DNA of 61,143 nt, the filler included, from Basidiobolus ranarum (taxonomy: Eukaryota), in NCBI GenBank assembly GCA_040143965.1. It is 17 parts of 17 records of this genome, joined end to end, with 100 filler letters (N's around TTAATTAATTAA, not from the genome) between each part and the next. Parts side by side here need not be neighbours in the genome. Positions count along the whole stretch, not along the records: positions 7,230 to 10,741 come from JASJQH010002442.1; 16 more parts are not named here. The stretch is one strand, 5' to 3'. Made by a program: the position numbers and the translations under genes. Below the pieces are notes generated by a model. It did not search any database. It was not told the DNA's origin and saw nothing but the letters and a program-made list of their open reading frames with translations. Below are positions 3,516 through 57,551 of this stretch, one piece after another. How positions within the stretch are numbered: the first letter of the stretch is position 1; each line of letters begins with the position of its first letter.

Positions 3516-3615
3516 NNNNNNNNNNNNNNNNNNNNNNNNNNNNNNNNNNNNNNNNNNNNTTAATTAATTAANNNNNNNNNNNNNNNNNNNNNNNNNNNNN
3601 NNNNNNNNNNNNNNN
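3516..3615. other. Artificial contig linker (N-run, TTAATTAATTAA, N-run); first of 16
   Basis: Identical 100-bp linkers start at 3516, 7130, 10742, 14352, 17961, 21565, 25169, 28771, 32373, 35974, 39573, 43171, 46769, 50365, 53959 and 57552. The motif gives stops in all six frames, and contig lengths never increase along the window. Confidence 0.98.
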
Positions 3616-7129: not shown

Positions 7130-7678
7130 NNNNNNNNNNNNNNNNNNNNNNNNNNNNNNNNNNNNNNNNNNNNTTAATTAATTAANNNNNNNNNNNNNNN
7201 NNNNNNNNNNNNNNNNNNNNNNNNNNNNNCCGAGTGGCGAGTATTTTCTAGGTGTTTGGGGGCTAAGCTATGGGCCTTGAGAAGGCGGTAGGATGAAAAT
7301 CACATGTAGTACATAATGGCAATAGGTCTATTCAGTTTGTACAGAAAGGGCTTTGAGCGCCTCCGAATCACCTTGGATCCTTGTATGTGTCTCACTAGCC
7401 GGCTTATCTGACACCCCCCATAATCCTCAACAAACCTGTTAGCATAGATTTCTTTCTTTTTCGTCCTCACACAGTAGTCGACGTACCAATTATGGCCACT
7501 ATGGTCATTGTACACTATGTATTAGCGAGGCTAACTCAAGTGCCTTTGAACACGGTAGTCATTTCCAGCATTGTGATTGGTGATCCGTTGGGGTTTGGTT
7601 ACACCAACTATGCGAAGGGGATTTATATCAAGACTATCCTCCAGGCTAGTTGGAAACTGACTTCGTATCTCCACTGCA

Positions 7679-10144
7679 ATGGTTCCCGGCGTCGACTCAA
7701 TCATCCAAATAGGAAAAATAGCGTTCGACAAAATACAAGAAAATAAGAATAACGCCCAAGTATCCGAGTATCTTCTGGAGTGCAGAGAGAAAGCCGTTGA
7801 AAATGACATGAAGCGCAGGATCAACATCCTGAGAGAAGAGTTCAATAGAGGCGAGATTAACAGTACTCTGGCCCTCTGCAAGCTAACGATGCTCTCGAAC
7901 GAGAATCCTGTCCAGGAAGCAAACCTCGTCAACAACGTCCAGCAGTTCTACTCTACAAACACCGCATACTACAACGTATTTAAGGACAATATATTGAATG
8001 AGTTTTTCCTGGACAAGGATGAAGCGTACATGTTCAACAACGGACACAATATTAATTGCTACGTGAATTACTGTCTGGAGAGCAGTATCGATCCCGTTAC
8101 CATGGCCAATATGAAAATCAACAGAGATGAAATCAAAGAGTACGACACCGAGGAGTTAATCCGTTTGATCTGTACCGTGCGTGACACTATCAAGTCCACT
8201 GACTTCAACAAAGATCTTAGCGCGGTGAACAACTACATCGAGCAACTCAAGCAATCCGAATTCACAGTCAGCCTATTTGGGGAGGTGAACAGTGGCAAAT
8301 CCACTATTATCAACACCATTATTGACCTGAATTTGGCATTTACAAATGTCGAGACATGTACTGCAGTCCCCGTGATATATGAAAATGATTGTGCGCAGAA
8401 TGAACCGGTGTTACACTTAGGGGAACACTTCCATGCATACGGGCTTGGTGCCATGTATGAAGGAGAGGAGATTTCCGCGGTGTTGAAGAAACTGAACGAT
8501 ATTGTCCGCGAAAACTCGATAAAGCTAAGCTTCGTTCAATGGCCAGTGGTTAAAGTCTCTTTTAATGGAATCAACAGCAAAATTCGCATCATTGATACAC
8601 CAGGCATATCAGAGAAAGATCCCACTTTGTTGCAATACGCTAAGCTAGCACTAACGCACTCTGTGTGCATGATGGTGATATTCCCATGCGATAAGATTAA
8701 TACAACTTCGGAAAATGCGATAAAAGCCTACACTGATTCGGTTATTAATAAAGGGAAGCATCTCTGCCTCATTGCGAACAGATGGGATGAGTACGAAAGG
8801 GGCCTGGACCCAACCGAGAAGAGAATTAAGAGGGAAGAGCTGACCAAGCGGTTCAAGCACAAAGGGTACAGCAAAGTGTTCATTACTACAGGGAGCAACG
8901 CATTCCACACATCCCAGATGCAAAAAATCTTGCAGAGTGGCCAAAAGCCCGCCTGGAGGGAGGCGAGGATATGGGTTGACAAATGCCTGTCTAATGCAGT
9001 GACCACTTCGGAAGATTTAGAGGAAGAATATGAGGGATACAGTACTAATGAATTGCAGAGAAAACTCACAAGGATACTCACCAATTCTGGAGTCTCTGAG
9101 CTAGTGACCTATCTGGACACCGGCCTGAGCAAGGATATTCAGCAAGAGACAATCATGTACATCTGCAATAATATGATAAAGGAGCTGTCGTTCTTTGAGT
9201 CATTAAGAGGTCCGATCAGAGACTCCGGAATCATGAGCATCTCTGACGCAGAGCAGCAACTGAATATGAACAATAACAGCAAAATTCTGCTCAACAAATC
9301 CCTAGACAGATGGAAGAGCCATATAGCCAGTCAGAAGTGCCGACTGATGGAACTTGTCACACCCGAAATTAAGGATATGAACACCACATTGAAGCAGGTT
9401 CTTTATAGTAGATATGAGGCCATCAAATCAGAAATTGAGAGCGCTCAAATGAAGGGATACAAGGCGGCAGCCAAGGAGAGCATTTCCAAAAGCAACCAAC
9501 GAGATATTATCTTCTTCAAAGACAAGGAGAACGAAGTGATAAACCAAATCTTCCGGAAGATCGACGATGCCCTTTTTGCCACTGTGAGATTCAAAATCAA
9601 AAGTATCAACGAGAGCCTGGTTAATACGTTATACACGCTAAAGACTGAGCTAAGAGATAGCTGCGAAGACTGGAATATTGTGTCCTTTATCGATGAAGTC
9701 AGAATACACGACTACATTTTCGATGAAAAGAATGTGAAGAAGGTCACTAACATAGCCGTATACAAGGTTAATGTAGAGCGACCAATGATATTGCGCGTCT
9801 TTGGCTCCAAGGAGAGAGAAAGTCGAGATAGGTTGTGCATCAAAGAGGTAAATTTTAGGTGTAGTATTGATGCTATTGTTGACGATTTGATTAACAAATT
9901 CGACTGCAATATCCGCCTACACATTTGCCGCCATATTGAGAGCTACACTAGTTACATTGAGAGAGGTAGTAATGGCATCCTAGATGCCATTGACACCAAC
10001 ATTCGCAAATTCCAAAACGACAAGACAGAAGCATTAGAAAGTTTGGGTCTCAGAATCCGGAGTGATCTCAAGTTGAATTCTTGCAACAGAATTTTAGGAA
10101 AGATCAGACGTAAGTATCTTGATGGCATAGACCGTAGTCATTAG
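7679..10144 (+). CDS. Dynamin-like GTPase (bacterial dynamin-like, CrfC/YjdA-type), 821 aa, intronless
   Basis: G1 GEVNSGKST, G2 TCT, G3 DTPG and G4 NRWD, flanked by helical/coiled-coil regions. The 2.46-kb ORF is uninterrupted and retains CpG. Confidence 0.85.
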   Translation: MVPGVDSIIQIGKIAFDKIQENKNNAQVSEYLLECREKAVENDMKRRINILREEFNRGEINSTLALCKLTMLSNENPVQEANLVNNVQQFYSTNTAYYNVFKDNILNEFFLDKDEAYMFNNGHNINCYVNYCLESSIDPVTMANMKINRDEIKEYDTEELIRLICTVRDTIKSTDFNKDLSAVNNYIEQLKQSEFTVSLFGEVNSGKSTIINTIIDLNLAFTNVETCTAVPVIYENDCAQNEPVLHLGEHFHAYGLGAMYEGEEISAVLKKLNDIVRENSIKLSFVQWPVVKVSFNGINSKIRIIDTPGISEKDPTLLQYAKLALTHSVCMMVIFPCDKINTTSENAIKAYTDSVINKGKHLCLIANRWDEYERGLDPTEKRIKREELTKRFKHKGYSKVFITTGSNAFHTSQMQKILQSGQKPAWREARIWVDKCLSNAVTTSEDLEEEYEGYSTNELQRKLTRILTNSGVSELVTYLDTGLSKDIQQETIMYICNNMIKELSFFESLRGPIRDSGIMSISDAEQQLNMNNNSKILLNKSLDRWKSHIASQKCRLMELVTPEIKDMNTTLKQVLYSRYEAIKSEIESAQMKGYKAAAKESISKSNQRDIIFFKDKENEVINQIFRKIDDALFATVRFKIKSINESLVNTLYTLKTELRDSCEDWNIVSFIDEVRIHDYIFDEKNVKKVTNIAVYKVNVERPMILRVFGSKERESRDRLCIKEVNFRCSIDAIVDDLINKFDCNIRLHICRHIESYTSYIERGSNGILDAIDTNIRKFQNDKTEALESLGLRIRSDLKLNSCNRILGKIRRKYLDGIDRSH

Positions 10145-10471
10145 AAGATTATCCTCTTAGTGTAAAGTGAATACCACAGTATGGTTGTCTATGAACCTTT
10201 AGAATGTCTATCAAGAGATAACTACCATACTTAAAGGTCCTTGCAAGAAATCCGTTTCAAGGAGCATAAACTCGTGCTACCTAGTCAAGTAGAGTGAGAT
10301 ATGTGTATGTATCACATTGCAATATGCGCCCTGTTGATGAATAAACAAGCATTATTGCGCTCGTTGGTTAACTATTGCAGTACTTCAGAACCTCTAGTTT
10401 ACTACACTGTGCATTTATGCAATAACAATACTCTCATATGGGTATTCCTCCCCAGCTGTTACCCACTGTTA

Positions 10472-10741
10472 CTATACATAGGGGTTAGGGTTAGGGGGAT
10501 GAAAAGCACCTAGTGGTGTGAACTTTATTTAGCTTATATACTAATCTAAAGAAAGTGACAATTAAAACACAAATCTCTTAAGATATTGTGACAATACTGG
10601 ATCATACCCATACTTAAATTGATGACCAACGTAATCAAGCTCAGAGGATGTAAATATAGTGTTAAGGGGTAAAGGTGGTAAGCAGAAAGGAAGGTACTCA
10701 GTGCAAACCAGATGGACAATAGGACAAAAACCTGGAATAAT
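10472..10741 (+). repeat. Dispersed repeat beginning with TTAGGG units (candidate DNA-transposon end)
   Basis: 10472-~10700 is the reverse complement of 43271-43499 (GGTTAGGGTTAGGGGGATGAAAAGCACC…AGCAGAAAGGAAGGTACT). Confidence 0.85.
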
Positions 10742-10841
10742 NNNNNNNNNNNNNNNNNNNNNNNNNNNNNNNNNNNNNNNNNNNNTTAATTAATTAANNN
10801 NNNNNNNNNNNNNNNNNNNNNNNNNNNNNNNNNNNNNNNNN

Positions 10842-11164
10842 CCATATTTTCCACCGCTTCCGCCGCCATTACCTCCATAGTCACCACCTGATCCACCGCC
10901 ACCACCACCGTATTTTCCCCCACTTCCACCACCATTACCTCCGTAATCGCCACCTGATCCACCGCCACCATTACCACCATAGCGATCACTTACTGCACCT
11001 CCACCATTACCACCACCACCGGTATTATGACTGCCATAAGAGATACCCTTTCCTTCGCCTCCTCCAGAGTAATCCTTGGTGTTATAGCTTCGTTCAAGTA
11101 CAGCAGCATTAACCATGGCCCAGGTGGACACAGCAAAGAGAATTTTAGCAGAAGAGAATTTCAT
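10842..11164 (-). CDS. Secreted glycine-rich repeat protein (3'-truncated by the contig end)
   Basis: Signal-peptide-like MKFSSAKILFAVSTWAMVNAA followed by YGGNGGGSGG(D/K) repeats. TATAAATA lies ~70 bp upstream on the minus strand. Confidence 0.8.
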
Positions 11165-25268: not shown

Positions 25269-28200
25269 TCTAGTAGCCTTATCAATTGGCCAACAATTAC
25301 TCAAAGTGACCACGGCGGGGACGTTCATCCCTTTACCAACCGGAGGCTTGGAATCCTCGTCAGGGAATACTATGCATACTTTCTTCTCAAATATCACAAT
25401 CTCCCCTGGAATACGGTCTAAGGATGGGATACTAGTCAAGTCAACTGGCTCTAAGAATCGAACTTTGCCAAATCCTGTACGTCCTACTTCGAAGTCCTCT
25501 ACCTTCTTAAGTTGTCCAGGGGTCATCTTCTGAAGTTCACTTAATGAAGGCGAAACCCAATACTCTCCGTCGGATTTGGTCGAAGTCACTTGCTCATCAC
25601 CGTAACTACGAATGGATTCACTCATTCGTGATGGTGTGGTATGTACGGGTGATTTATAAGGTGTGGTGGAGAAGTTGCTCAGCACGCTATCCTCATTTCC
25701 ATTCTGAGGAGTGTGATTGTGACTGAGATTATTAAGAGGAGAGATCCTCTCAGTAGCTCTATCAGTGGTGACTTCCTTGGTGGGCGTAGTAGAAGTGGAA
25801 CGAGCGATATTTAGCTTCTTAACGCTAGAGTTTGGAGTATACGCTCCTGGATTTAAAAGTGGATCATTGGGGCCGACTTCAGACGAAGTGCCGTTCAGTT
25901 TAGGCGTAGATGATCGGAGAGGTGATTGTGAATTAAAACCGCGAAGCTTGATTTTGGCCACTGAGCGTGGAGCTGACTTGAAGTGCAAAGTGGAGCCAGT
26001 CTTTTTTTTCTGTACAACTTGCGTAGTGGAAGCAGTATTGTCGGTGGCAATGCTACTTCTTAGAGGTGAAGCTGTCAATGGCGAACTGTTGGCAGGAAGT
26101 GAGGAAAAAAGTGGATTGTTTCCATAAGGATCCTTATCAATAGCTGCTTGTAATCCTGATTGATTGGTGGGAGCAGCACCCCCTAATGCTGAGGTCGAGA
26201 GACCAAGTCCACCAGCACTGTTATTCGATCCAAATGAACTTAATCCAGTAGTTGTATTAGAGGTATTACTAAAAAGAGATGAGCCTGCAAGTGAAGGCTT
26301 GGGTGCGAACAGACTACTACCAGTGTTGGTGTTGGATGTTAATGTAGAGGCTCCAAATGGATTAGAGGTAACCGTAGGGGCAGTACTGCCAAATAGACTT
26401 GGGGTGGTCGTAGTAGAAGTGGCAGTATTCCCAAATAAACTGGGGGTGGTCGTGTTGTTGGTGTTGCCAAATAAGCTTGGGGTGGCAGTGGTAGCTGTAT
26501 TAGTAGCGCCAAATCCGCCGAATGCTGGTTTTGCTGCAGTGGCTCCGGCACTATTTGCATTGGCTCCAAATGAAAAACTGTTGGTGGCAGGTTTTGCGGC
26601 ACCGAATGTAGATCCAGCGGCATTTCCAAAGCCAAATGATGGTGTTGAGGTAGCAGGCGCAGTGGATGCAGGAGCATTAAATCCAAAGCCAGTGCTTGTG
26701 TTCGTGGCTCCAAATGCTGGAGTGGCAGCAGCAGTTGATGTAGCGCCAAATCCAAAGCCAGTATTTGGCGTAGTATTGGTAGCTCCAAAAGTAGGTGTTG
26801 TGGCGCCAAATGTAGATGTAGGAGTAGTGTTGGTAGCTCCAAAGCCAAAAGCTGGTTTAGCCGCAGCATTTCCGAAGCCTGTTCCCGAGCCAAAGCTCGA
26901 GGTACTAGTTGCATTTTGGCCAAAAGCAGGTGTGGTATTTCCAAAGCTGCTTGTGGCAGCGGGTTGACCAAATGGTGATGTAGTTGCTGCGGCAGAGCCA
27001 AAGATTCCTAATAAAATTCACTCGAGGTTTAGTAAAAAAGGAAAATATCAATATTTTGAAGAACATCATAATAAACTACCAGTCGAAGGGGCGGCGGCTC
27101 CAAAGCTGGGAGTTGTGGTATTGCCAAACCCGGTTGTAGGTTGTCCAAAACCAGTACTTTGGGTATTACTTCCAAAGAGCGAGGTACCAGTAGAAGCAGG
27201 AGTGGCTCCGAACCCTGTGTTGCTTGTATTTCCAAAAGTACTACCACCAAATCCTGTGCTATTAGATGCACCAAAGGTGCTTCCAGTTGCTCCAGTTTGA
27301 CCAGCAGTCTTTCGCCCTTGCTGATAATCTTGAACTCTTAGTTCCTCGAATGAGTAATTTCGATAGGCAGGCATTGCACTGATACTTTGTAAAAGTGTAA
27401 TTACACCCGTACTAGAATCCTTCTCTTGAGTTACACTATAAGCTGGTGACGAGGTTCCACTTCCTCCGGTAGCCATACCGCCTCCAAATCCGGTTGCAGT
27501 GGCCCCAAATCCAGCAGTATTATTGGTGTTGGAGGCTCCAAACAAGCCTCCAGTATTAGAGCCGAAAGCATTTCCAGTATTGGAAGTTTGCCCGAAAACA
27601 CCGGAGTTGGTCGCTGAACCAAAAGCAGGAGTCGCAGGAGCGGCAGAAGCAGTGTCTAAAAGAAAATAATACTTTTAGTATTCATGAATTTCATAGATAT
27701 ATATATATATATATTCAACGTACTGCCAAAACCGAAACTTGTGTTTGAGGCAGGAGCAGTGGTATCTATAGATCGAATGAGTTGGCCTGATGAAAAGTTT
27801 ATATTTATCAGCATTTATCCAGATACTTACTTGAACCAAAAAGTCCCCCAGAACCAAAACCAGATTGCTGTTGTTGTGGTTGTGCGCCGAATGCAGTACT
27901 TGTTGCTCCAAAACCACCTAAAATAAAAATTAATTCGATAATGAGTTGGTTGTTGCAGATCAATGAATTTAGATCGACATCACGTACCCGATGAACTACC
28001 AAAACCAGTTTGTTGCTGTTGAGGTTGACCGAAAGTCGAGGTGGAACCGAATCCAGTATTAGAAGGTTGTCCAAAACCTAGAAAAAATTAATAAGTGAGA
28101 TTTAGTAAGGTTTTAGAAGAATGAAATGGAATCCTAGCAAAACACGAAAAAAAATAGGAGATTCACCTCCACTTCCGCCTCCAAAAGTATTCGCTGGTTG

Positions 28201-33709: not shown

Positions 33710-34465
33710 ATGTCCAGCGCGGATGAACAAGAGGAACAGATGAGTGTTGAGGAAGAGAACGAAGAATTTGAAGAGGAAGAGGATACCATAGAGGAAAGTA
33801 AGGAAGTTTATGTTGTAGAAAAGGTGGTTAACCACCGTAAGCGTGGGGTAGGCTGAGTTTGTTAAAGTATATATATGGACCTTCTTGACCTTAGTTAACC
33901 TGTGTACTACCAGGGAAAAACCCAATACTTCCTCAAATGGAAGGGTTATCCTGAAGAGGACAACACCTGGGAGGACGAGGACAATCTTTTCTGTCACGAG
34001 CTAATCGAAGCGTATCTCAAAAACAAAGAAAGCGCAAAGAATACCCCTGGAACAAAAAACTCGCGAGGTAAATCGGCCAAGAGAGCCAAGACCGATAGTT
34101 CTGATGAAGAGGAGGCCTCACCGATAAAGAAGAATATCAAAGAGGAGGACTTGGAAAATTGGGAAGACCAAGTACAAGAAGTTGAGACTGTTGAGCGCGA
34201 TGAATCAAATACCTTGAAGGTTTATCTCATTTGGTTAGTGAAGTATTTCATGTTTCTTGGATTTGATCTTCGTATTAACTCTCTACTCGTAAAAGGAATA
34301 ACGGTAAGAGAACCGTTCATGATGCTGAAGATGCCAACCAAAGATGTCCTCAAAAGGTAAAATAAAAAGTACCTCAGGTCCCTTCAACTCCTGGTTTAAC
34401 TTGTTTAATCTTAATAGGTCATCAAATTCTACGAAGCCCATTTGAGATTCAAGGCGGCTTCTTGA
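33710..34465 (+). CDS. swi6: HP1/Swi6-family heterochromatin protein (chromo + chromoshadow); exons 33710-33847, 33914-34233, 34296-34356, 34418-34465
   Basis: Acidic N-terminus, chromodomain [12 protein letters not shown]…[16 protein letters not shown], basic hinge and chromoshadow domain VYLIWNNG…[15 protein letters not shown]. Three GT-AG introns splice in frame. Confidence 0.93.
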
Positions 34466-40172: not shown

Positions 40173-40985
40173 TAATTTTAACAATTGCAATCATTTGTTC
40201 AGTAAGGCAATAGACAAGTGAAATTATATCATTTTCTATTGCTTTTTGAACAAAATAATGCCTAATAACTATATGTTGTTTTCTAGTATGAAATGTTGGG
40301 TTTTTAGCTAATGAAATGCAACTTTGATTGTCTTCAAATACAATAACAGCATGTTTTTGCATGTAACCTAAGTCTGTAAATAACTTCCTTAACCACATGG
40401 CTACTTGTGTAGTAGCAGAGGCAGTTATATACTCTGCTTCTGTAGTGGAACGTGCTAAATTTAGTTATTTCTTACTATTCCAAGTTATGGCTCCATTACC
40501 ATAGAGAAAAGTGTACCCAGTTGTTAATCTTCTATTAGCAAGGTTTCTTTCCCAGTCTGCATCACTGTAGCCTTCAACATTTTGTGCATCAGGGGTGGCA
40601 GAGTAATCCAGAATTAGATCTACAGTCCCTCTCAAATACCTGAATATTTGTTTTACTGCAGTTTTGTGCTCAGATGCTGGATTTTTGAGATATTGGCTGA
40701 CAGTTCCCACTGCCACAGCAATGTTTGTACATGTTCTAACCATTTTATACATTAAACTACCCACCATGAGCTGTAAAGCAAACCCCTGGCTTTGATTTGA
40801 GTCATCTTGGACCAAATCTGATGAAACTATGATTAATTTCCCAATGGGATCTATTGGTGTTGATAAAGGCTTGTTATTTTCCATGTTGAAGTGTGTTAGG
40901 ATGTCTAGGATGTATCTAGATTGCTTCAGCATGATCTTCTGATTGGGTTCATCTTCCTTGATTTGAATTCCAAGGTAATAACTTC
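40173..40985 (-). mobile_element. Copia RT/RNase H fragment (target of the Harbinger insertion)
   Basis: VGSLMY, GYSDADW, ITWNSKK and FEDNQSCI. Confidence 0.9.
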
Positions 40986-41066
40986 CAAAGGTGAATTATT
41001 CATTATTATACTTCTCTGATGATACTAAATTGTTGATAATAGTACTTAAAAATATTCCTCATAATC

Positions 41067-43270: not shown

Positions 43271-43499
43271 AGTACCTTCCTTTCTGCTTACCACCTTTGC
43301 CCCTTAACACTATATTTACATCCTCTGAGCTTGATTACATTGGTCATCAGGTTAAGTATGGATATGATCCAGTATTGTCACAATATCTTAAAATATTGAT
43401 TTCTTGATTGTCACTTGGTTTAGATTAGTATTTGAGCTAAATAAAGTCTACACCATCTGGTGCTTTTCATCCCCCCTAACCCTAACCCTAACTGTATAG
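43271..43499 (-). repeat. Second copy of the TTAGGG-tipped dispersed repeat
   Basis: Ends CCCCCCTAACCCTAACCCTAACTGTATAG and is the reverse complement of 10472-~10700. Confidence 0.85.
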
Positions 43500-46868: not shown

Positions 46869-47641
<773 letters not shown>

Positions 47642-56070: not shown

Positions 56071-57551
56071 CTAGTTGTTTGAATTCAAATCTTGCTGGAT
56101 CACGAGAGAGTAGTACTGGCCTTTCAAAGCCATCAACTCGTTGTGGGTACCGCGCTCATTTACTTCTCCATTCTTAAGGACATAAATAACATCTGCTTTT
56201 TGAATAGTAGACAAGCGATGGGCGATAGCAATGGTAGTACGGCCTTGGGATGCTTTATCCAATGCTGTCTGAACTACCTTCTCGGACTCTGCGTCGAGAG
56301 CAGAGGTTGCCTCATCAAGTAAAAGAATCTTGGGGTTACGAATCAATGCACGGGCGATGGCAATTCGTTGCTTCTGTCCTCCCGAAAGCTGAGATCCCTT
56401 AGATCCTAATGAAGTATCATAACCATCAGGAAGAGACATAATGAAATCGTGAATATTGGCATCCTGGGCGGCTTGTTCAATTTCAGCTTGAGATGGTACA
56501 CGTTCAGTGAGTCCGAAACAAATATTTTCTTTTATACTCAAGTTATATAATGTTGGCTCCTGTCCTACTAAGGCAATATGTCTACGCATATCGGTTATAT
56601 TCATCTTACGAATATCTTTCCCATCAATCTTGATACAACCAGCGAGAACATCGTAAAAGCGTTCAGTAAGCCCGATAACGGTACTTTTTCCACAGCCAGA
56701 AGGACCCACAATCGCTGCATACTGTCCTGGTTTAATATCGAGGTTGAGACCGCGAAGTACTGGGACTCCAGGACGAGTCGGATAGCGGAAATGAACTTTA
56801 CTGTATGTAATATGCCCTTTGATAGAGTCCACTTTATCACCTTCATCACTCCAAACATCGATCAAAGGTTGACGGTCCAAGAGATCAATAATATTACCAG
56901 CGGCTGATTCGGCTTTAGTAACGTCAGGTACAAACGAAAATACATTTGCCGCAGATTGAGCACCAAAAACGATTGACATGAAAATAGTGAGGAATGTTTG
57001 ATAGTCATACTCGCCTTCAGACACCAATTTTCCACCATACCAGAAGCCAAGAGCATTGACCAGGAATACCGTTGCCTGCGTACACGCAAAAACAAATGAA
57101 GCACCGAATGCATTCTTTTTTCCAGCTTTGGTTGGGATATCTAGTTCAGCGTGGTATAATTGGCACACATCGCTCTCTCGTGTAAGTGAAGCTACAGTGC
57201 GAATAGCTGAAGTAGCTTCACAGGCAAGTTGTGCAGAGCTTTCGTAGGCGGTTTTAGCTTTATCTTCGTAGCCTCTCAACAGTGCCATACGAATTGCGCC
57301 TGCACCAATCATCACCGGAACACTGGCTACAACGGCAAGACTAAGTTTCCATCCGTAAATCAACCCTACTGTGAAGCCACCGAGGATATTTACTAGTACT
57401 TGAAGAATAGAGCCAAATGTAGTTCCACCAACTCCTTGAACATAGGTGGCATCGGGCGCGAGGGCTGAAACTAAAGCACCAGCGTTCTTCTCATCGCGGG
57501 CAAACCAGCCAATTTCTTGGCGAAGTATGCTGGCAAATAATTGAGCACGAA
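56071..57551 (-). CDS. ABCB/MDR (P-glycoprotein-like) transporter, C-terminal TMD2+NBD2 (5'-truncated)
   Basis: LRQEIGWF, Walker A GPSGCGKST, signature LSGGQKQR, Walker B ILLLDEATSALD and H-loop IAHRLST. The frame is open to the gap. Confidence 0.96.

What the first reader, a model, noticed from the sequence alone, without database searches (positions are those of the whole stretch)
7679..10144. Intact intronless CrfC/YjdA-like bacterial dynamin in a fungal genome: candidate horizontally acquired defence or membrane-remodelling GTPase
Seen: an 821-aa uninterrupted ORF with complete G1-G4 motifs, no introns and normal CpG content, whereas the Nup98, HP1 and myosin genes here are intron-rich and the TEs are CpG-stripped. 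Knowledge (recalled, not searched): TAVPVI…QNEPVLHL, YEGEEISAVLKKLNDIVR and PVVKVSF…DTPG closely parallel E. coli CrfC/YjdA (TALPTLI…QKEPVLHF, LKSLNDLVR, PVIEVEF…DTPG). They do not resemble fungal Fzo1, Mgm1, Dnm1 or Vps1, and I see no mitofusin-type TM hairpin. Several bacterial dynamin-like proteins act in membrane repair or anti-phage defence. Inference: a bacteria-derived (or virus-shuttled) dynamin domesticated in this fungus.
Basis: partly seen in the sequence, partly recalled or inferred. Interest (0 to 1): 0.8.

Follow-up and report, generated by a model that had tools for sequence, protein, structure and literature searches.

The report
Orphan bacterial-type dynamin in Basidiobolus
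A Basidiobolus fungus carries an intact gene for a dynamin-like GTPase that resembles bacterial dynamins more than the usual fungal ones and has relatives in very few other fungi, but a transfer from bacteria could not be shown.

Summary
The 821-aa ORF (7679-10144, +) is real, with intact G1-G4 motifs, no TM segment and CpG o/e 0.82. The "window" is 17 unlinked ~3.5-kb contigs glued by N44-TTAATTAATTAA-N44 spacers. The gene sits alone on a 3,512-bp contig, so the Nup98/HP1 comparison is not local context. GAPDH on another contig is 96% identical to Basidiobolus meristosporus. A 229-bp repeat downstream of the gene recurs (89%) on a CpG-stripped repeat contig, which argues against contamination.

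Among 1.84 billion representatives only 8 proteins reach E<=1e-10. They are Basidiobolus ranarum copies (63-65% identity), one Umbelopsis protein on a 2.6-Mb scaffold, two unnamed assemblies and fragments. All else matches the GTPase domain remotely. E. coli CrfC is 22% identical over 259 columns. The fold is BDLP/SynDLP/mitofusin-like. In a GTPase tree the family is monophyletic on a long stem, excluded from the BDLP-type clade and unresolved among CrfC-like groups.

Verdict: a new, patchy, fast-evolving fungal subfamily of bacterial-type dynamin-like proteins. Recent bacterial transfer is excluded and older transfer is plausible but unproven. Function is inferred only.

The parts
7230..10741 (.). 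The real contig (3,512 bp) that carries the gene. It is bounded on both sides by artificial N44-TTAATTAATTAA-N44 joints.
   Evidence: The length equals the 'longest_contig 3512' recorded for P0001.
7679..10144 (+). Intact intronless ORF of 821 aa (P0001), a dynamin-like GTPase. The stop codon is at 10142-10144.
   Evidence: It is collinear over 98-99% of its length with the 817- and 813-aa B. ranarum proteins.
7679..8143 (+). N-terminal all-helical region (aa 1-155) specific to this family, with no known fold or family.
   Evidence: No Pfam or NCBIfam hit. No usable ESM Atlas hit. Not covered by structural matches, which start at aa 154-157. pLDDT is 37-73.
8204..8968 (+). GTPase domain (aa 176-430), the most conserved part.
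   Evidence: Dynamin_N covers aa 198-346. Identity to P0002 is 76% over 250 columns here against 64.5% overall. Matches BDLP 2j68 over aa 176-380.
8279..8305 (+). G1 / P-loop GEVNSGKST (aa 201-209).
   Evidence: Invariant in 6 of 6 family members.
8354..8362 (+). G2 / switch I, T-C-T (aa 226-228) within ETCTAVP.
   Evidence: Invariant in 6 of 6. Aligns with CTA of BDLP and TAL of CrfC.
8594..8605 (+). G3, DTPG (aa 306-309).
   Evidence: D-T-P is invariant. P0005 alone reads DTPD.
8777..8788 (+). G4, NRWD (aa 367-370).
   Evidence: The same NRWD occurs in 2 BDLP-type rows (P0022, P0042). BDLP has NAWD and CrfC has NKFD.
8969..10141 (+). Helical neck and stalk (aa 431-821), with very long predicted helices at 472-589, 614-661 and 723-820.
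   Evidence: AF2 model, pLDDT mostly 70-88 here. Whole-chain matches to SynDLP, IniA, BDLP, Campylobacter DLP and mitofusin.
9446..9517 (+). First inter-helix segment (aa 590-613), basic, ending in the motif D-I-I-F-F. Putative stalk tip.
   Evidence: I610, I611 and F612 are invariant in 6 of 6. Strand 610-613 in the model. Segment alignment. The tip role is inference.
9749..9844 (+). Second inter-helix segment (aa 691-722), basic and hydrophobic (R-P-x-I-x-R-x-F-G), with three short predicted strands. Putative stalk tip.
   Evidence: Present in the 4 full-length members. The role is inference.
10340..10345 (+). AATAAA hexamer 196 nt after the stop codon, a possible poly(A) signal.
   Evidence: Read directly. 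Weak, because the hexamer is common in AT-rich DNA.
10472..10698 (.). Fragment of a dispersed repeat. It is 89% identical over 229 bp to the first bases of contig 13 (43271-43499, opposite strand), a CpG-stripped repeat contig.
   Evidence: blastn and alignment. It ties the gene's contig to the repeat population of the same assembly.

Best explanation
This is a genuine, intact nuclear gene of a Basidiobolus species. It encodes a soluble dynamin-like protein (DLP) of the bacterial type. It belongs to a very small, patchy, fast-diverging fungal family seen in Basidiobolus, Umbelopsis and two unnamed assemblies, with several decayed copies. That family stands outside all canonical eukaryotic dynamin classes. 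The family has been in fungi for a long time, so it is not a recent import. Its ultimate origin is most simply an old transfer of a prokaryote-type DLP, but direction and donor cannot be shown. Likely mechanism, inferred from the fold and conserved motifs and not tested: GTP binding drives head-to-head dimerisation of the G domains and stimulated hydrolysis. This moves the neck relative to a long helical stalk. The distal basic-hydrophobic tip (aa 590-613 and 691-722) contacts a membrane, so the protein tethers, fuses or seals membranes. The family-specific N-terminal 155 residues would serve targeting or regulation. The birth-and-death pattern fits a dispensable stress or defence role better than a housekeeping role.
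For: Real gene: an 821-codon open frame. All G motifs are invariant across members that share only 33-37% identity. The G domain is more conserved than the stalk. Fungal, not contaminant: the closest relatives are B. ranarum proteins and an Umbelopsis protein on a 2,587,155-bp scaffold. GAPDH on another contig of the window is 96% and 94% identical to B. meristosporus. A 229-bp repeat in the 3' flank recurs on a CpG-stripped repeat contig of the same window. Tiny family: 8 of 1.84e9 representatives reach E<=1e-10. Only the six members plus two remote hits (P0058, P0059; 51 and 44 bits) reach E<=1e-5 in the profile search of 5.8e9 clusters, in which 8000 candidates were scored. Bacterial type: Foldseek top hits are SynDLP 2.8e-14, BDLP, IniA and Campylobacter DLP. 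VIA gives SynDLP Z 20.7 (rmsd 18.4, 604 aligned), MFN2 19.6, IniA 17.4, Fzo1 16.6 and BDLP 16.5. The profile search of PDB sequences puts BDLP first at 1.1e-8. Atlas neighbours are bacterial. PADLOC gives LeoBC 1e-6 over aa 176-604. hhalign gives CrfC 97.4% and P0011 98.8% over 435 columns. Long residence and turnover: the family stem is 1.27 substitutions per site. P0001, P0002 and P0003 form an unresolved trio at 62-65% identity, although the nearest Basidiobolus GAPDH entries are 94-96% identical to the window's. Fragmentary or motif-damaged copies exist: P0007, P0008, P0009 (P-loop GK changed to RK), P0051 and the 543-aa Umbelopsis model.
Against: No expression, read-depth or long-range linkage data could be obtained. 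Codon usage differs sharply from the clearly native genes in the window. GC3 is 0.555 against 0.30-0.43, T3 is 0.23 against 0.38-0.50, and the RSCU correlation is -0.09 against 0.42-0.64 among ABC, GAPDH and Nup98. This could mean a foreign or separately evolving source. However, only five reference pieces were available, and the chromodomain exon has a similar bias (GC3 0.50, T3 0.23). No homologue appeared from the annotated B. meristosporus proteome, although that proteome is in the searched collection. The structural model is of middling confidence (pLDDT 72, pTM 0.52, 6 sequences). Membrane binding, dimerisation and any defence role are inference. The bacterial origin is not demonstrated by the tree.
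Confidence: 0.55

Rival explanations
1. Ancient vertical inheritance. The family descends from a BDLP-like dynamin already present in early eukaryotes or early fungi, and was lost from almost all lineages, with no gene transfer at all.
For: The two fungal branches (Basidiobolus; Umbelopsis and kin) are separated by 33-37% identity, as expected for old divergence. Other bacterial-type DSP families with patchy eukaryotic distribution are known, such as TbMfnL (preprint 10.1101/2023.06.28.546890, passages). One of the rows that group loosely with the family is from a diatom transcriptome (P0017).
Against: It requires very many independent losses. Among 1.84e9 representatives the named sources are only two fungal genera. 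Published surveys of fungal DSPs list Vps1, Dnm1, Mgm1, FZO and MxF only (PMC11789081, passages). The grouping with the diatom row has 55/15 support.
Confidence: 0.15
2. Cargo of a virus or mobile element that moves between zygomycete fungi, now resident in the genome.
For: Patchy distribution across distant zygomycetes. Several copies and decayed copies. No introns. Codon usage unlike native genes. A repeat fragment about 330 bp downstream of the stop codon. One giant-virus MAG encodes a remote DLP (L002, 26% identity over aa 201-373).
Against: The viral hit is no closer than bacterial ones and sits on a branch of length 4. No terminal repeats or element genes lie on the 3.5-kb contig. The gene is not CpG-stripped like the repeats. 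No family remnant lies in the flanks.
Confidence: 0.12
3. The contig does not belong to the fungus and comes from a contaminant or co-cultured organism.
For: It is a short, single-gene contig with deviant codon usage and a GC-richer 5' flank (0.454 against about 0.36-0.37 for non-coding parts of other contigs). The B. ranarum homologues also lie on short contigs of 2-13 kb.
Against: It shares a repeat with a CpG-stripped contig of the same window. Homologues occur in an independent Basidiobolus assembly and on a 2.6-Mb Umbelopsis scaffold. No prokaryotic, viral or metagenomic near-relative exists.
Confidence: 0.06
4. Recent horizontal acquisition from a bacterium of the gut or soil community, as for many Basidiobolus secondary-metabolite genes.
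For: Basidiobolus is reported to carry 2-5% bacterial-like genes, 61% of them without introns (PMC7466969, passages). The protein is of bacterial type.
Against: No bacterial protein comes near. The best non-family score is 53 bits, E 1.6e-9, GTPase domain only. Scans of 185,579 species genomes gave two matches of 28-33% over short stretches. Arg codons are mainly AGA/AGG (0.60 of Arg codons). The closest relatives are fungal.
Confidence: 0.04

Closest known systems
E. coli CrfC / YjdA / RdcA (b4109) and CrfC-like bacterial DLPs
   Same: Dynamin-type G domain with alignable family-specific stretches around switch I, the LNDxVR helix and the strand before DTPG. hhalign probability is 97.4%. Seven of the nine best non-family hits listed (P0011, P0015-P0020, against P0013 and P0014) match CrfC at E<=4e-17. 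A clade of the family plus core CrfC is not rejected (p-AU 0.218). The ESM Atlas top structural row is the RdcA cluster (TM 0.44/0.48). Both are soluble, with no TM segment.
   Different: Only 22% identity, confined to aa 181-377. NCBIfam CrfC scores 27 bits against a cut-off of 1146. The roughly 55-residue insert between G2 and G3 is absent: G1-to-G3 spacing is 105 against 158-203 in 9 CrfC-like rows. There is no Trp-rich motif in the distal stalk. An extra 155-aa N-terminal region is present. No RdcB-type partner gene lies on the contig. The roles of CrfC/RdcA in clamp binding and DgcE activation (product names; details recalled) have no obvious eukaryotic counterpart.
BDLP of Nostoc punctiforme / SynDLP / IniA / Campylobacter DLP1-2 (bacterial fusion-type DLPs)
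   Same: Best sequence match in the PDB (2j68, 1.1e-8 with the profile). Best fold matches over G domain, neck and stalk. Same G1-to-G3 spacing class (91-125) and an NxWD-type G4.
   Different: No hit to the bacterial helical domain PF21808. Grouping with 16 BDLP-type rows is rejected (p-AU 0.009, with the group named after seeing the tree). Identity in structural alignments is 10-13%.
Mitofusin / Fzo1
   Same: BDLP-like fold: MFN2 Z 19.6 (rmsd 30.2, 358 aligned) and Fzo1 Z 16.6 (rmsd 7.8, 326 aligned).
   Different: No Fzo_mitofusin domain, no TM segment, and no mitofusin-type domain among the remote sequence hits.
TbMfnL family (dynamin-superfamily proteins shared by prokaryotes and several protist groups)
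   Same: It is a precedent for a bacterial-type DSP with patchy eukaryotic distribution and inferred transfers (preprint 10.1101/2023.06.28.546890, passages).
   Different: That family is reported as absent from Opisthokonta and as anchored in the mitochondrial inner membrane. I had no MfnL sequence, so relatedness was not tested.
Eleos (LeoA/LeoBC) anti-phage dynamins and DynA of B. subtilis
   Same: Weak profile matches to LeoBC (1e-6, aa 176-604) and LeoA (1e-5). LeoA 4aur is among the fold hits. Two B. ranarum copies bear consecutive locus tags on a contig of the same length, recalling paired bacterial DLP genes (the abstract of PMC6104087 in the listing).
   Different: Scores are low and PADLOC has no curated cut-off. 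The B. ranarum neighbours are 62% identical paralogues, not a heterotypic pair. No defence phenotype is known.

Membership tests
Dynamin superfamily (Pfam Dynamin_N, PF00350) | Dynamin_N profile above Pfam's gathering score | tested here: met
   38.4 bits against 27, aa 198-346
Dynamin superfamily (Pfam Dynamin_N, PF00350) | Complete G1-G4 nucleotide-binding motifs | tested here: met
   GEVNSGKST, TCT, DTPG, NRWD
Dynamin superfamily (Pfam Dynamin_N, PF00350) | G domain followed by a helical neck and stalk | tested here: met
   Predicted model only: pLDDT 72. Whole-chain matches to SynDLP, BDLP, IniA and MFN2
Dynamin superfamily (Pfam Dynamin_N, PF00350) | Assembly-stimulated GTP hydrolysis and membrane binding | not testable with these tools
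   Needs biochemistry
CrfC / YjdA / RdcA (NCBIfam NF007368) | Equivalog profile score at or above the curated cut-off | tested here: not met
   27 bits against 1146, covering only aa 176-248
CrfC / YjdA / RdcA (NCBIfam NF007368) | Long insert in the G domain between switch I and G3 (a feature I observed in CrfC and its relatives, not a published definition) | tested here: not met
   G1-to-G3 spacing is 105 in 5 family rows against 158-203 in 9 CrfC-like rows. Seven of the 40 rows were not measurable by the pattern
CrfC / YjdA / RdcA (NCBIfam NF007368) | Trp-rich motif at the distal stalk tip (lead from earlier notes e1-469532 and e1-025376) | tested here: not met
   CrfC, P0018, P0030, P0049 and P0017 show 2-3 Trp in a 25-aa window in the C-terminal third. 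In the fungal family the only such window is at aa 426-450, next to the G domain
CrfC / YjdA / RdcA (NCBIfam NF007368) | Groups with CrfC in a G-domain tree | tested here: inconclusive
   Free tree unresolved (55/15). The constrained clade is not rejected, p-AU 0.218
CrfC / YjdA / RdcA (NCBIfam NF007368) | Adjacent RdcB/YjcZ-type partner gene | not testable with these tools
   The contig holds only 449 bp upstream and 597 bp downstream, and no genome is held
BDLP-type bacterial DLP (Pfam PF21808 helical domain) | Bacterial dynamin-like helical domain profile | tested here: not met
   No PF21808 hit at E<=1, although 8 of 37 remote hits carry it
BDLP-type bacterial DLP (Pfam PF21808 helical domain) | Groups with BDLP-type proteins in a G-domain tree | tested here: not met
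   Separated by a 99/94 starred branch. The clade with 16 BDLP-type rows is rejected, p-AU 0.009, with the group named post hoc
Mitofusin / Fzo1 | Fzo_mitofusin domain and a C-terminal transmembrane anchor | tested here: not met
   No such Pfam hit. Maximum hydropathy window is 1.44
Classical fungal DRPs (Dnm1, Vps1, Mgm1) | Dynamin_M middle domain and GED | tested here: not met
   No hit at E<=1. No direct tree with these proteins could be built, because none was available as a stored sequence
Eleos (LeoA/LeoBC) defence system | Profile match to LeoA/LeoBC and a two-gene arrangement | tested here: inconclusive
   LeoBC 26.2 bits (E 1e-6) and LeoA 22.9 bits. The neighbourhood is not visible here

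The most novel reading that the evidence does not exclude
The family is the first opisthokont branch of the CrfC/MfnL-like prokaryote-eukaryote dynamins. It acts as a rapidly diversifying, dispensable innate-defence or membrane-repair GTPase of zygomycete fungi, a fungal counterpart of Eleos, DynA, IRG or Mx proteins. It has spread between distant fungi horizontally, possibly on a virus or mobile element, which would explain its deviant codon usage, multiple decayed copies and patchy distribution.
Probability: 0.12. Interest if true: 0.75.

Novelty: new variant of a known kind. Interest (0 to 1): 0.4.

Why it matters
Surveys of fungal dynamin-superfamily proteins list Vps1, Dnm1, Mgm1, Fzo1 and Mx-like proteins (PMC11789081, passages). 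A bacterial-type class with its own N-terminal module is not among them. I found no paper naming these proteins: the locus-tag search found no paper, and the topic searches listed none on this family. If the family is functional, it would add a sixth kind of dynamin to fungi. It would give a compact soluble model for BDLP-type mechanics in a eukaryotic cytoplasm. It would also offer a test of whether dynamin-based membrane defence, known in bacteria (DynA, Eleos) and animals (Mx, IRG, GBP), exists in early-diverging fungi. As evidence for gene transfer it is weak, because it lacks a donor.

Tried and rejected
Expression, coverage and chimerism are therefore untested. Within the window, tblastn of P0001 against the other 16 contigs found nothing.
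2. Search for a donor: the viral-contig scan gave 1 remote GVMAG locus out of 309 pattern matches. The genome-contig scan gave 2 remote proteobacterial MAG loci out of 460. The metagenome-contig scan gave 2 remote loci out of 211. None is close.
3. Nearest outgroup P0011 searched in 401 Pseudomonadota genomes: 3 matches at 24-27% identity. Its origin stays unknown. It was not found in the two MAGs G001 and G002.
4. N-terminal 155 residues: nothing from Pfam or NCBIfam, no usable ESM Atlas feature hit, and structural rows all below TM 0.42 to unrelated families. I did not fold it alone.
5. Remnant of a tandem paralogue in the flanks: only chance-level tblastn matches, E>=0.21.
6. Terminal or inverted repeats around the gene: only short chance-like pairs inside the ORF.
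7. Eukaryotic reference dynamins (Fzo1, Mgm1, Dnm1, Vps1, MfnL) could not be put in the tree, because no tool gave them as stored sequences. Their exclusion rests on domain scans and on their absence from the hit list.
8. No complex prediction was run. A G-domain homodimer would pass by likeness to solved dynamins and would change little.
9. Earlier notes of this scan: none for this genome or sequence.
10. Supplementary tables of PMC7466969 (list of HGT candidates) are closed. They might show whether a relative was flagged in B. meristosporus.
Full report
OBSERVATION. It has a P-loop GEVNSGKST (aa 201-209), switch-I threonines in ETCTAVP (226-228), DTPG (306-309) and NRWD (367-370). Pfam Dynamin_N scores 38.4 bits against a gathering score of 27, and MMR_HSR1 scores 35 bits. 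CpG o/e of the ORF is 0.82. The best 19-residue hydropathy window is 1.44, so there is no transmembrane hairpin.

THE WINDOW IS NOT ONE LOCUS. It holds 32 runs of exactly 44 N, in 16 pairs, each pair flanking the 12-mer TTAATTAATTAA. The 17 pieces between them fall steadily from 3515 to 3492 bp. This is a size-sorted concatenation of short contigs. The gene lies alone on piece 3 (7230-10741, 3512 bp, the contig length recorded for this protein), with 449 bp upstream and 597 bp downstream.

Those contigs do carry a Nup98 autopeptidase/FG exon, a chromodomain exon, a GAPDH fragment and an ABC transporter fragment. Three of these are long open exons of 583, 256 and 492 aa, so long uninterrupted coding stretches are not exceptional here. 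The 17 pieces split into 10 with CpG o/e 0.01-0.11, which share repeat families, and 7 with 0.58-0.78. The gene's contig (0.72) belongs with the genic class.

WHOSE GENE IS IT. The GAPDH fragment is 96% and 94% identical to two Basidiobolus meristosporus entries. The best other named fungi reach 85% and no other protein in the list exceeds 86%. The assembly is therefore a Basidiobolus.

The gene's contig is tied to that genome by a repeat. Bases 10472-10698 are 89% identical over 229 bp to the first bases of contig 13, one of the CpG-stripped repeat contigs. At one position the gene's contig keeps a CG where the other copy has TG.

More distant are an Umbelopsis protein on a 2,587,155-bp scaffold and two unnamed Logan assemblies. 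Contamination is therefore unlikely.

One thing remains unexplained. Codon usage is unlike the native genes in the window. GC3 is 0.555 against 0.30-0.43, T-ending codons are 0.23 against 0.38-0.50, and the RSCU correlation with pooled ABC, GAPDH and Nup98 is -0.09, while those genes correlate at 0.42-0.64 with each other. The sample is small, and the chromodomain exon shows a similar bias (GC3 0.50, T3 0.23). I treat this as a flag, not as proof of foreign origin.

HOW BIG IS THE FAMILY. An exhaustive phmmer search of 1.84 billion representatives gave 47 proteins at E<=1e-3, 8 at E<=1e-10 and 7 at E<=1e-30. The strong ones are the fungal proteins above plus fragments. The next hit scores 53 bits and matches the G domain only.

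A profile of the six members searched against 5.8 billion clusters returned the same six plus two remote proteins. No protein from the annotated B. meristosporus proteome appeared, although that proteome is in the collection.

Several members look decayed:
- P0009 has the P-loop GK changed to RK.
- P0051 loses the switch-I threonines.
- P0012 has the same longest-contig length as P0051 (15,829 bp).
- P0057 has the same longest-contig length as P0009 (9,397 bp).
- The Umbelopsis gene model is only 543 aa.

Within Basidiobolus, the window's protein and the two B. ranarum neighbours are mutually 62-65% identical and form an unresolved trio. The nearest Basidiobolus GAPDH entries, by contrast, are 94-96% identical to the window's. 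The family is therefore small, patchy, duplicated and turning over.

WHAT KIND OF DYNAMIN. I tested the recalled resemblance to CrfC directly, using E. coli K-12 b4109 from the annotated genome. BLASTP gives 22% identity over 259 columns with 27% gaps, aa 181-377 only (E 2e-12 for the single comparison). All three recalled motif pairs are aligned. hhalign gives 97.4% over 192 columns. So the lead was sound, but 'closely' is not.

Seven of the nine best non-family hits listed (P0011, P0015-P0020; the other two are P0013 and P0014) are CrfC relatives at E<=4e-17. The nearest outgroup, the metagenomic P0011, aligns over 435 columns into the stalk (98.8%).

Three CrfC features are missing:
- The NCBIfam equivalog scores 27 bits against a cut-off of 1146.
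- The G1-to-G3 spacing is 105 residues, as in 19 BDLP-type and other rows (91-125), against 158-203 in 9 CrfC-like rows. Seven of the 40 rows could not be measured.
- The Trp-rich distal motif is absent from the fungal stalk. Earlier notes of this scan flagged it as a CrfC-family signature, and I could see it in 5 CrfC-like rows.

The best PDB sequence match is Nostoc BDLP (2.8e-6 alone, 1.1e-8 with the profile).

An AlphaFold model (pLDDT 72, pTM 0.52, six sequences) matches whole-chain bacterial DLPs first:
- Foldseek: SynDLP 2.8e-14, then BDLP, IniA and Campylobacter DLP1/2.
- VIA: SynDLP Z 20.7, MFN2 19.6, IniA 17.4, Fzo1 16.6, BDLP 16.5.
- Classical dynamins, Mx and OPA1/Mgm1 come lower.

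None of the 37 scanned remote hits carries a family listed as Fzo_mitofusin, Dynamin_M or GED, and 8 of 37 carry the bacterial helical domain. ESM Atlas neighbours are bacterial.

TREE. I cut the G domain from 40 rows. These were the entries of my 66-sequence set that covered at least 140 profile positions, after dropping three near-duplicates. I ran IQ-TREE with LG+C20+F+G4 on 266 columns.

The six family members are monophyletic (100/98) on a stem of 1.27 substitutions per site. A starred branch (99/94) separates 18 BDLP/DynA-type rows from the rest. The family's position among three CrfC-like groups, a giant-virus row and one other group is unresolved (55/15).

AU tests give the following:
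- Family plus core CrfC clade: not rejected (p 0.218).
- Family plus 16 BDLP-type rows: rejected (p 0.009), with the caveat that this group was defined after seeing the tree.

Most rows have no taxon label. The labelled ones are E. coli, Moraxella, a diatom transcriptome and a giant-virus MAG. The tree therefore cannot give a donor or a direction.

ORIGIN. A recent bacterial transfer is excluded, for two reasons. Nothing bacterial is close. The fungal branches are themselves only 33-37% identical.

Lack of introns carries little weight. In B. meristosporus 36% of native genes and 61% of transfer candidates have none (PMC7466969, passages).

What remains is either an old acquisition of a prokaryote-type DLP, followed by long residence, duplication and loss, or vertical descent with massive loss. 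I favour the first because the superfamily branch is overwhelmingly bacterial and only two fungal genera are named among the sources. A precedent for patchy prokaryote-eukaryote dynamin families exists in TbMfnL, which is said to be absent from Opisthokonta (preprint, passages). A virus or element vector is possible but unsupported.

MECHANISM (inferred). The conserved G motifs and BDLP-like architecture predict the usual DLP cycle: GTP-dependent G-domain dimerisation, stimulated hydrolysis, and hinge movement of a long stalk. Two conserved basic-hydrophobic inter-helix segments form small strands in the model: aa 590-613, ending in the invariant DIIFF, and aa 691-722, RPxIxRxFG. They lie between the long stalk helices, where bacterial DLPs carry their membrane paddle. 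The N-terminal 155 residues are family-specific with no detectable relatives.

The weak LeoBC/LeoA matches, gene duplication, rapid divergence of the stalk (34-50% identity in aa 551-650 against 72-86% across aa 301-450 of the G domain) and frequent decay fit a dispensable stress or defence role. None of this has been tested.

LITERATURE. I found no description of this family. Locus tags and an accession gave 0 papers. Topic searches returned surveys that list other fungal dynamin classes (PMC11789081, passages) or exclude BDLPs from analysis (PMC10280142, passages). The main text of the early-diverging-fungi transfer survey contains no 'dynamin' (PMC11291939).

VERDICT. The feature is real and modestly novel. 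It is a new fungal subfamily of bacterial-type dynamin-like proteins. It is not a CrfC orthologue, and it is not demonstrably a horizontally acquired gene.

Noticed in passing
whole window; joints at 3516-3615, 7130-7229, 10742-10841 and onward roughly every 3.6 kb: The window is 17 separate contigs (3515 down to 3492 bp, sorted by size) joined by N44-TTAATTAATTAA-N44. Any inference from 'neighbouring' genes across these joints is invalid.
   Followed up: yes
all 17 contigs: CpG o/e is bimodal. Ten contigs are at 0.01-0.11 and share repeat families at 67-95% identity, including a 176-aa ORF at 40465-40995 that I took by eye for a Ty1/copia-type polymerase (no Pfam hit). Seven genic contigs are at 0.58-0.78. 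This fits methylation-driven CpG decay confined to repeats.
   Followed up: partly
7679-10141 versus 56074-57549, 46871-47638, 25269-27674, 33899-34357: The dynamin gene's codon usage (GC3 0.555, T3 0.23, frequent CTG/GTG/GCG/AGA) is unlike the ABC, GAPDH and Nup98 pieces (T3 0.38-0.50). It resembles the short chromodomain exon (GC3 0.50, T3 0.23). The cause is unknown.
   Followed up: partly
10479-10500 and the matching start of contig 13 (near 43480-43499): The shared 229-bp repeat begins with a telomere-like GGGTTAGGGTTAGGGGG stretch in both copies.
   Followed up: no
10842-11164 (-): An ORF running off its contig end has a signal-peptide-like N-terminus followed by GGNGGGSGGDYGG-type glycine-rich repeats. 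It may be a secreted or cell-wall protein.
   Followed up: no
25269-27674 (-): The Nup98-type gene (FG repeats plus autopeptidase S59 domain) shows two long exons separated by a roughly 48-bp gap (27018-27065), probably a short intron.
   Followed up: partly
P0009, P0051/P0012, P0057 (unnamed metagenome and Logan contigs): Fragments 58-64% identical to the Umbelopsis-side member P0004 carry damaged motifs (P-loop GK to RK, loss of the switch-I threonines). They are split over several ORFs whose longest-contig lengths coincide (15,829 and 9,397 bp). They look like pseudogenes or intron-split copies in other soil fungi.
   Followed up: partly
P0013 (781 aa, NCBI source): One remote hit combines an N-terminal Effector-associated domain 7 (EAD7) with two dynamin-type GTPase domains, an architecture typical of bacterial conflict systems.
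   Followed up: no
L002:4785-6740 (giant-virus MAG contig): A 652-aa ORF on a Nucleocytoviricota MAG encodes a very divergent dynamin-like GTPase (26% identity to aa 201-373, branch length 4 in the tree).
   Followed up: no
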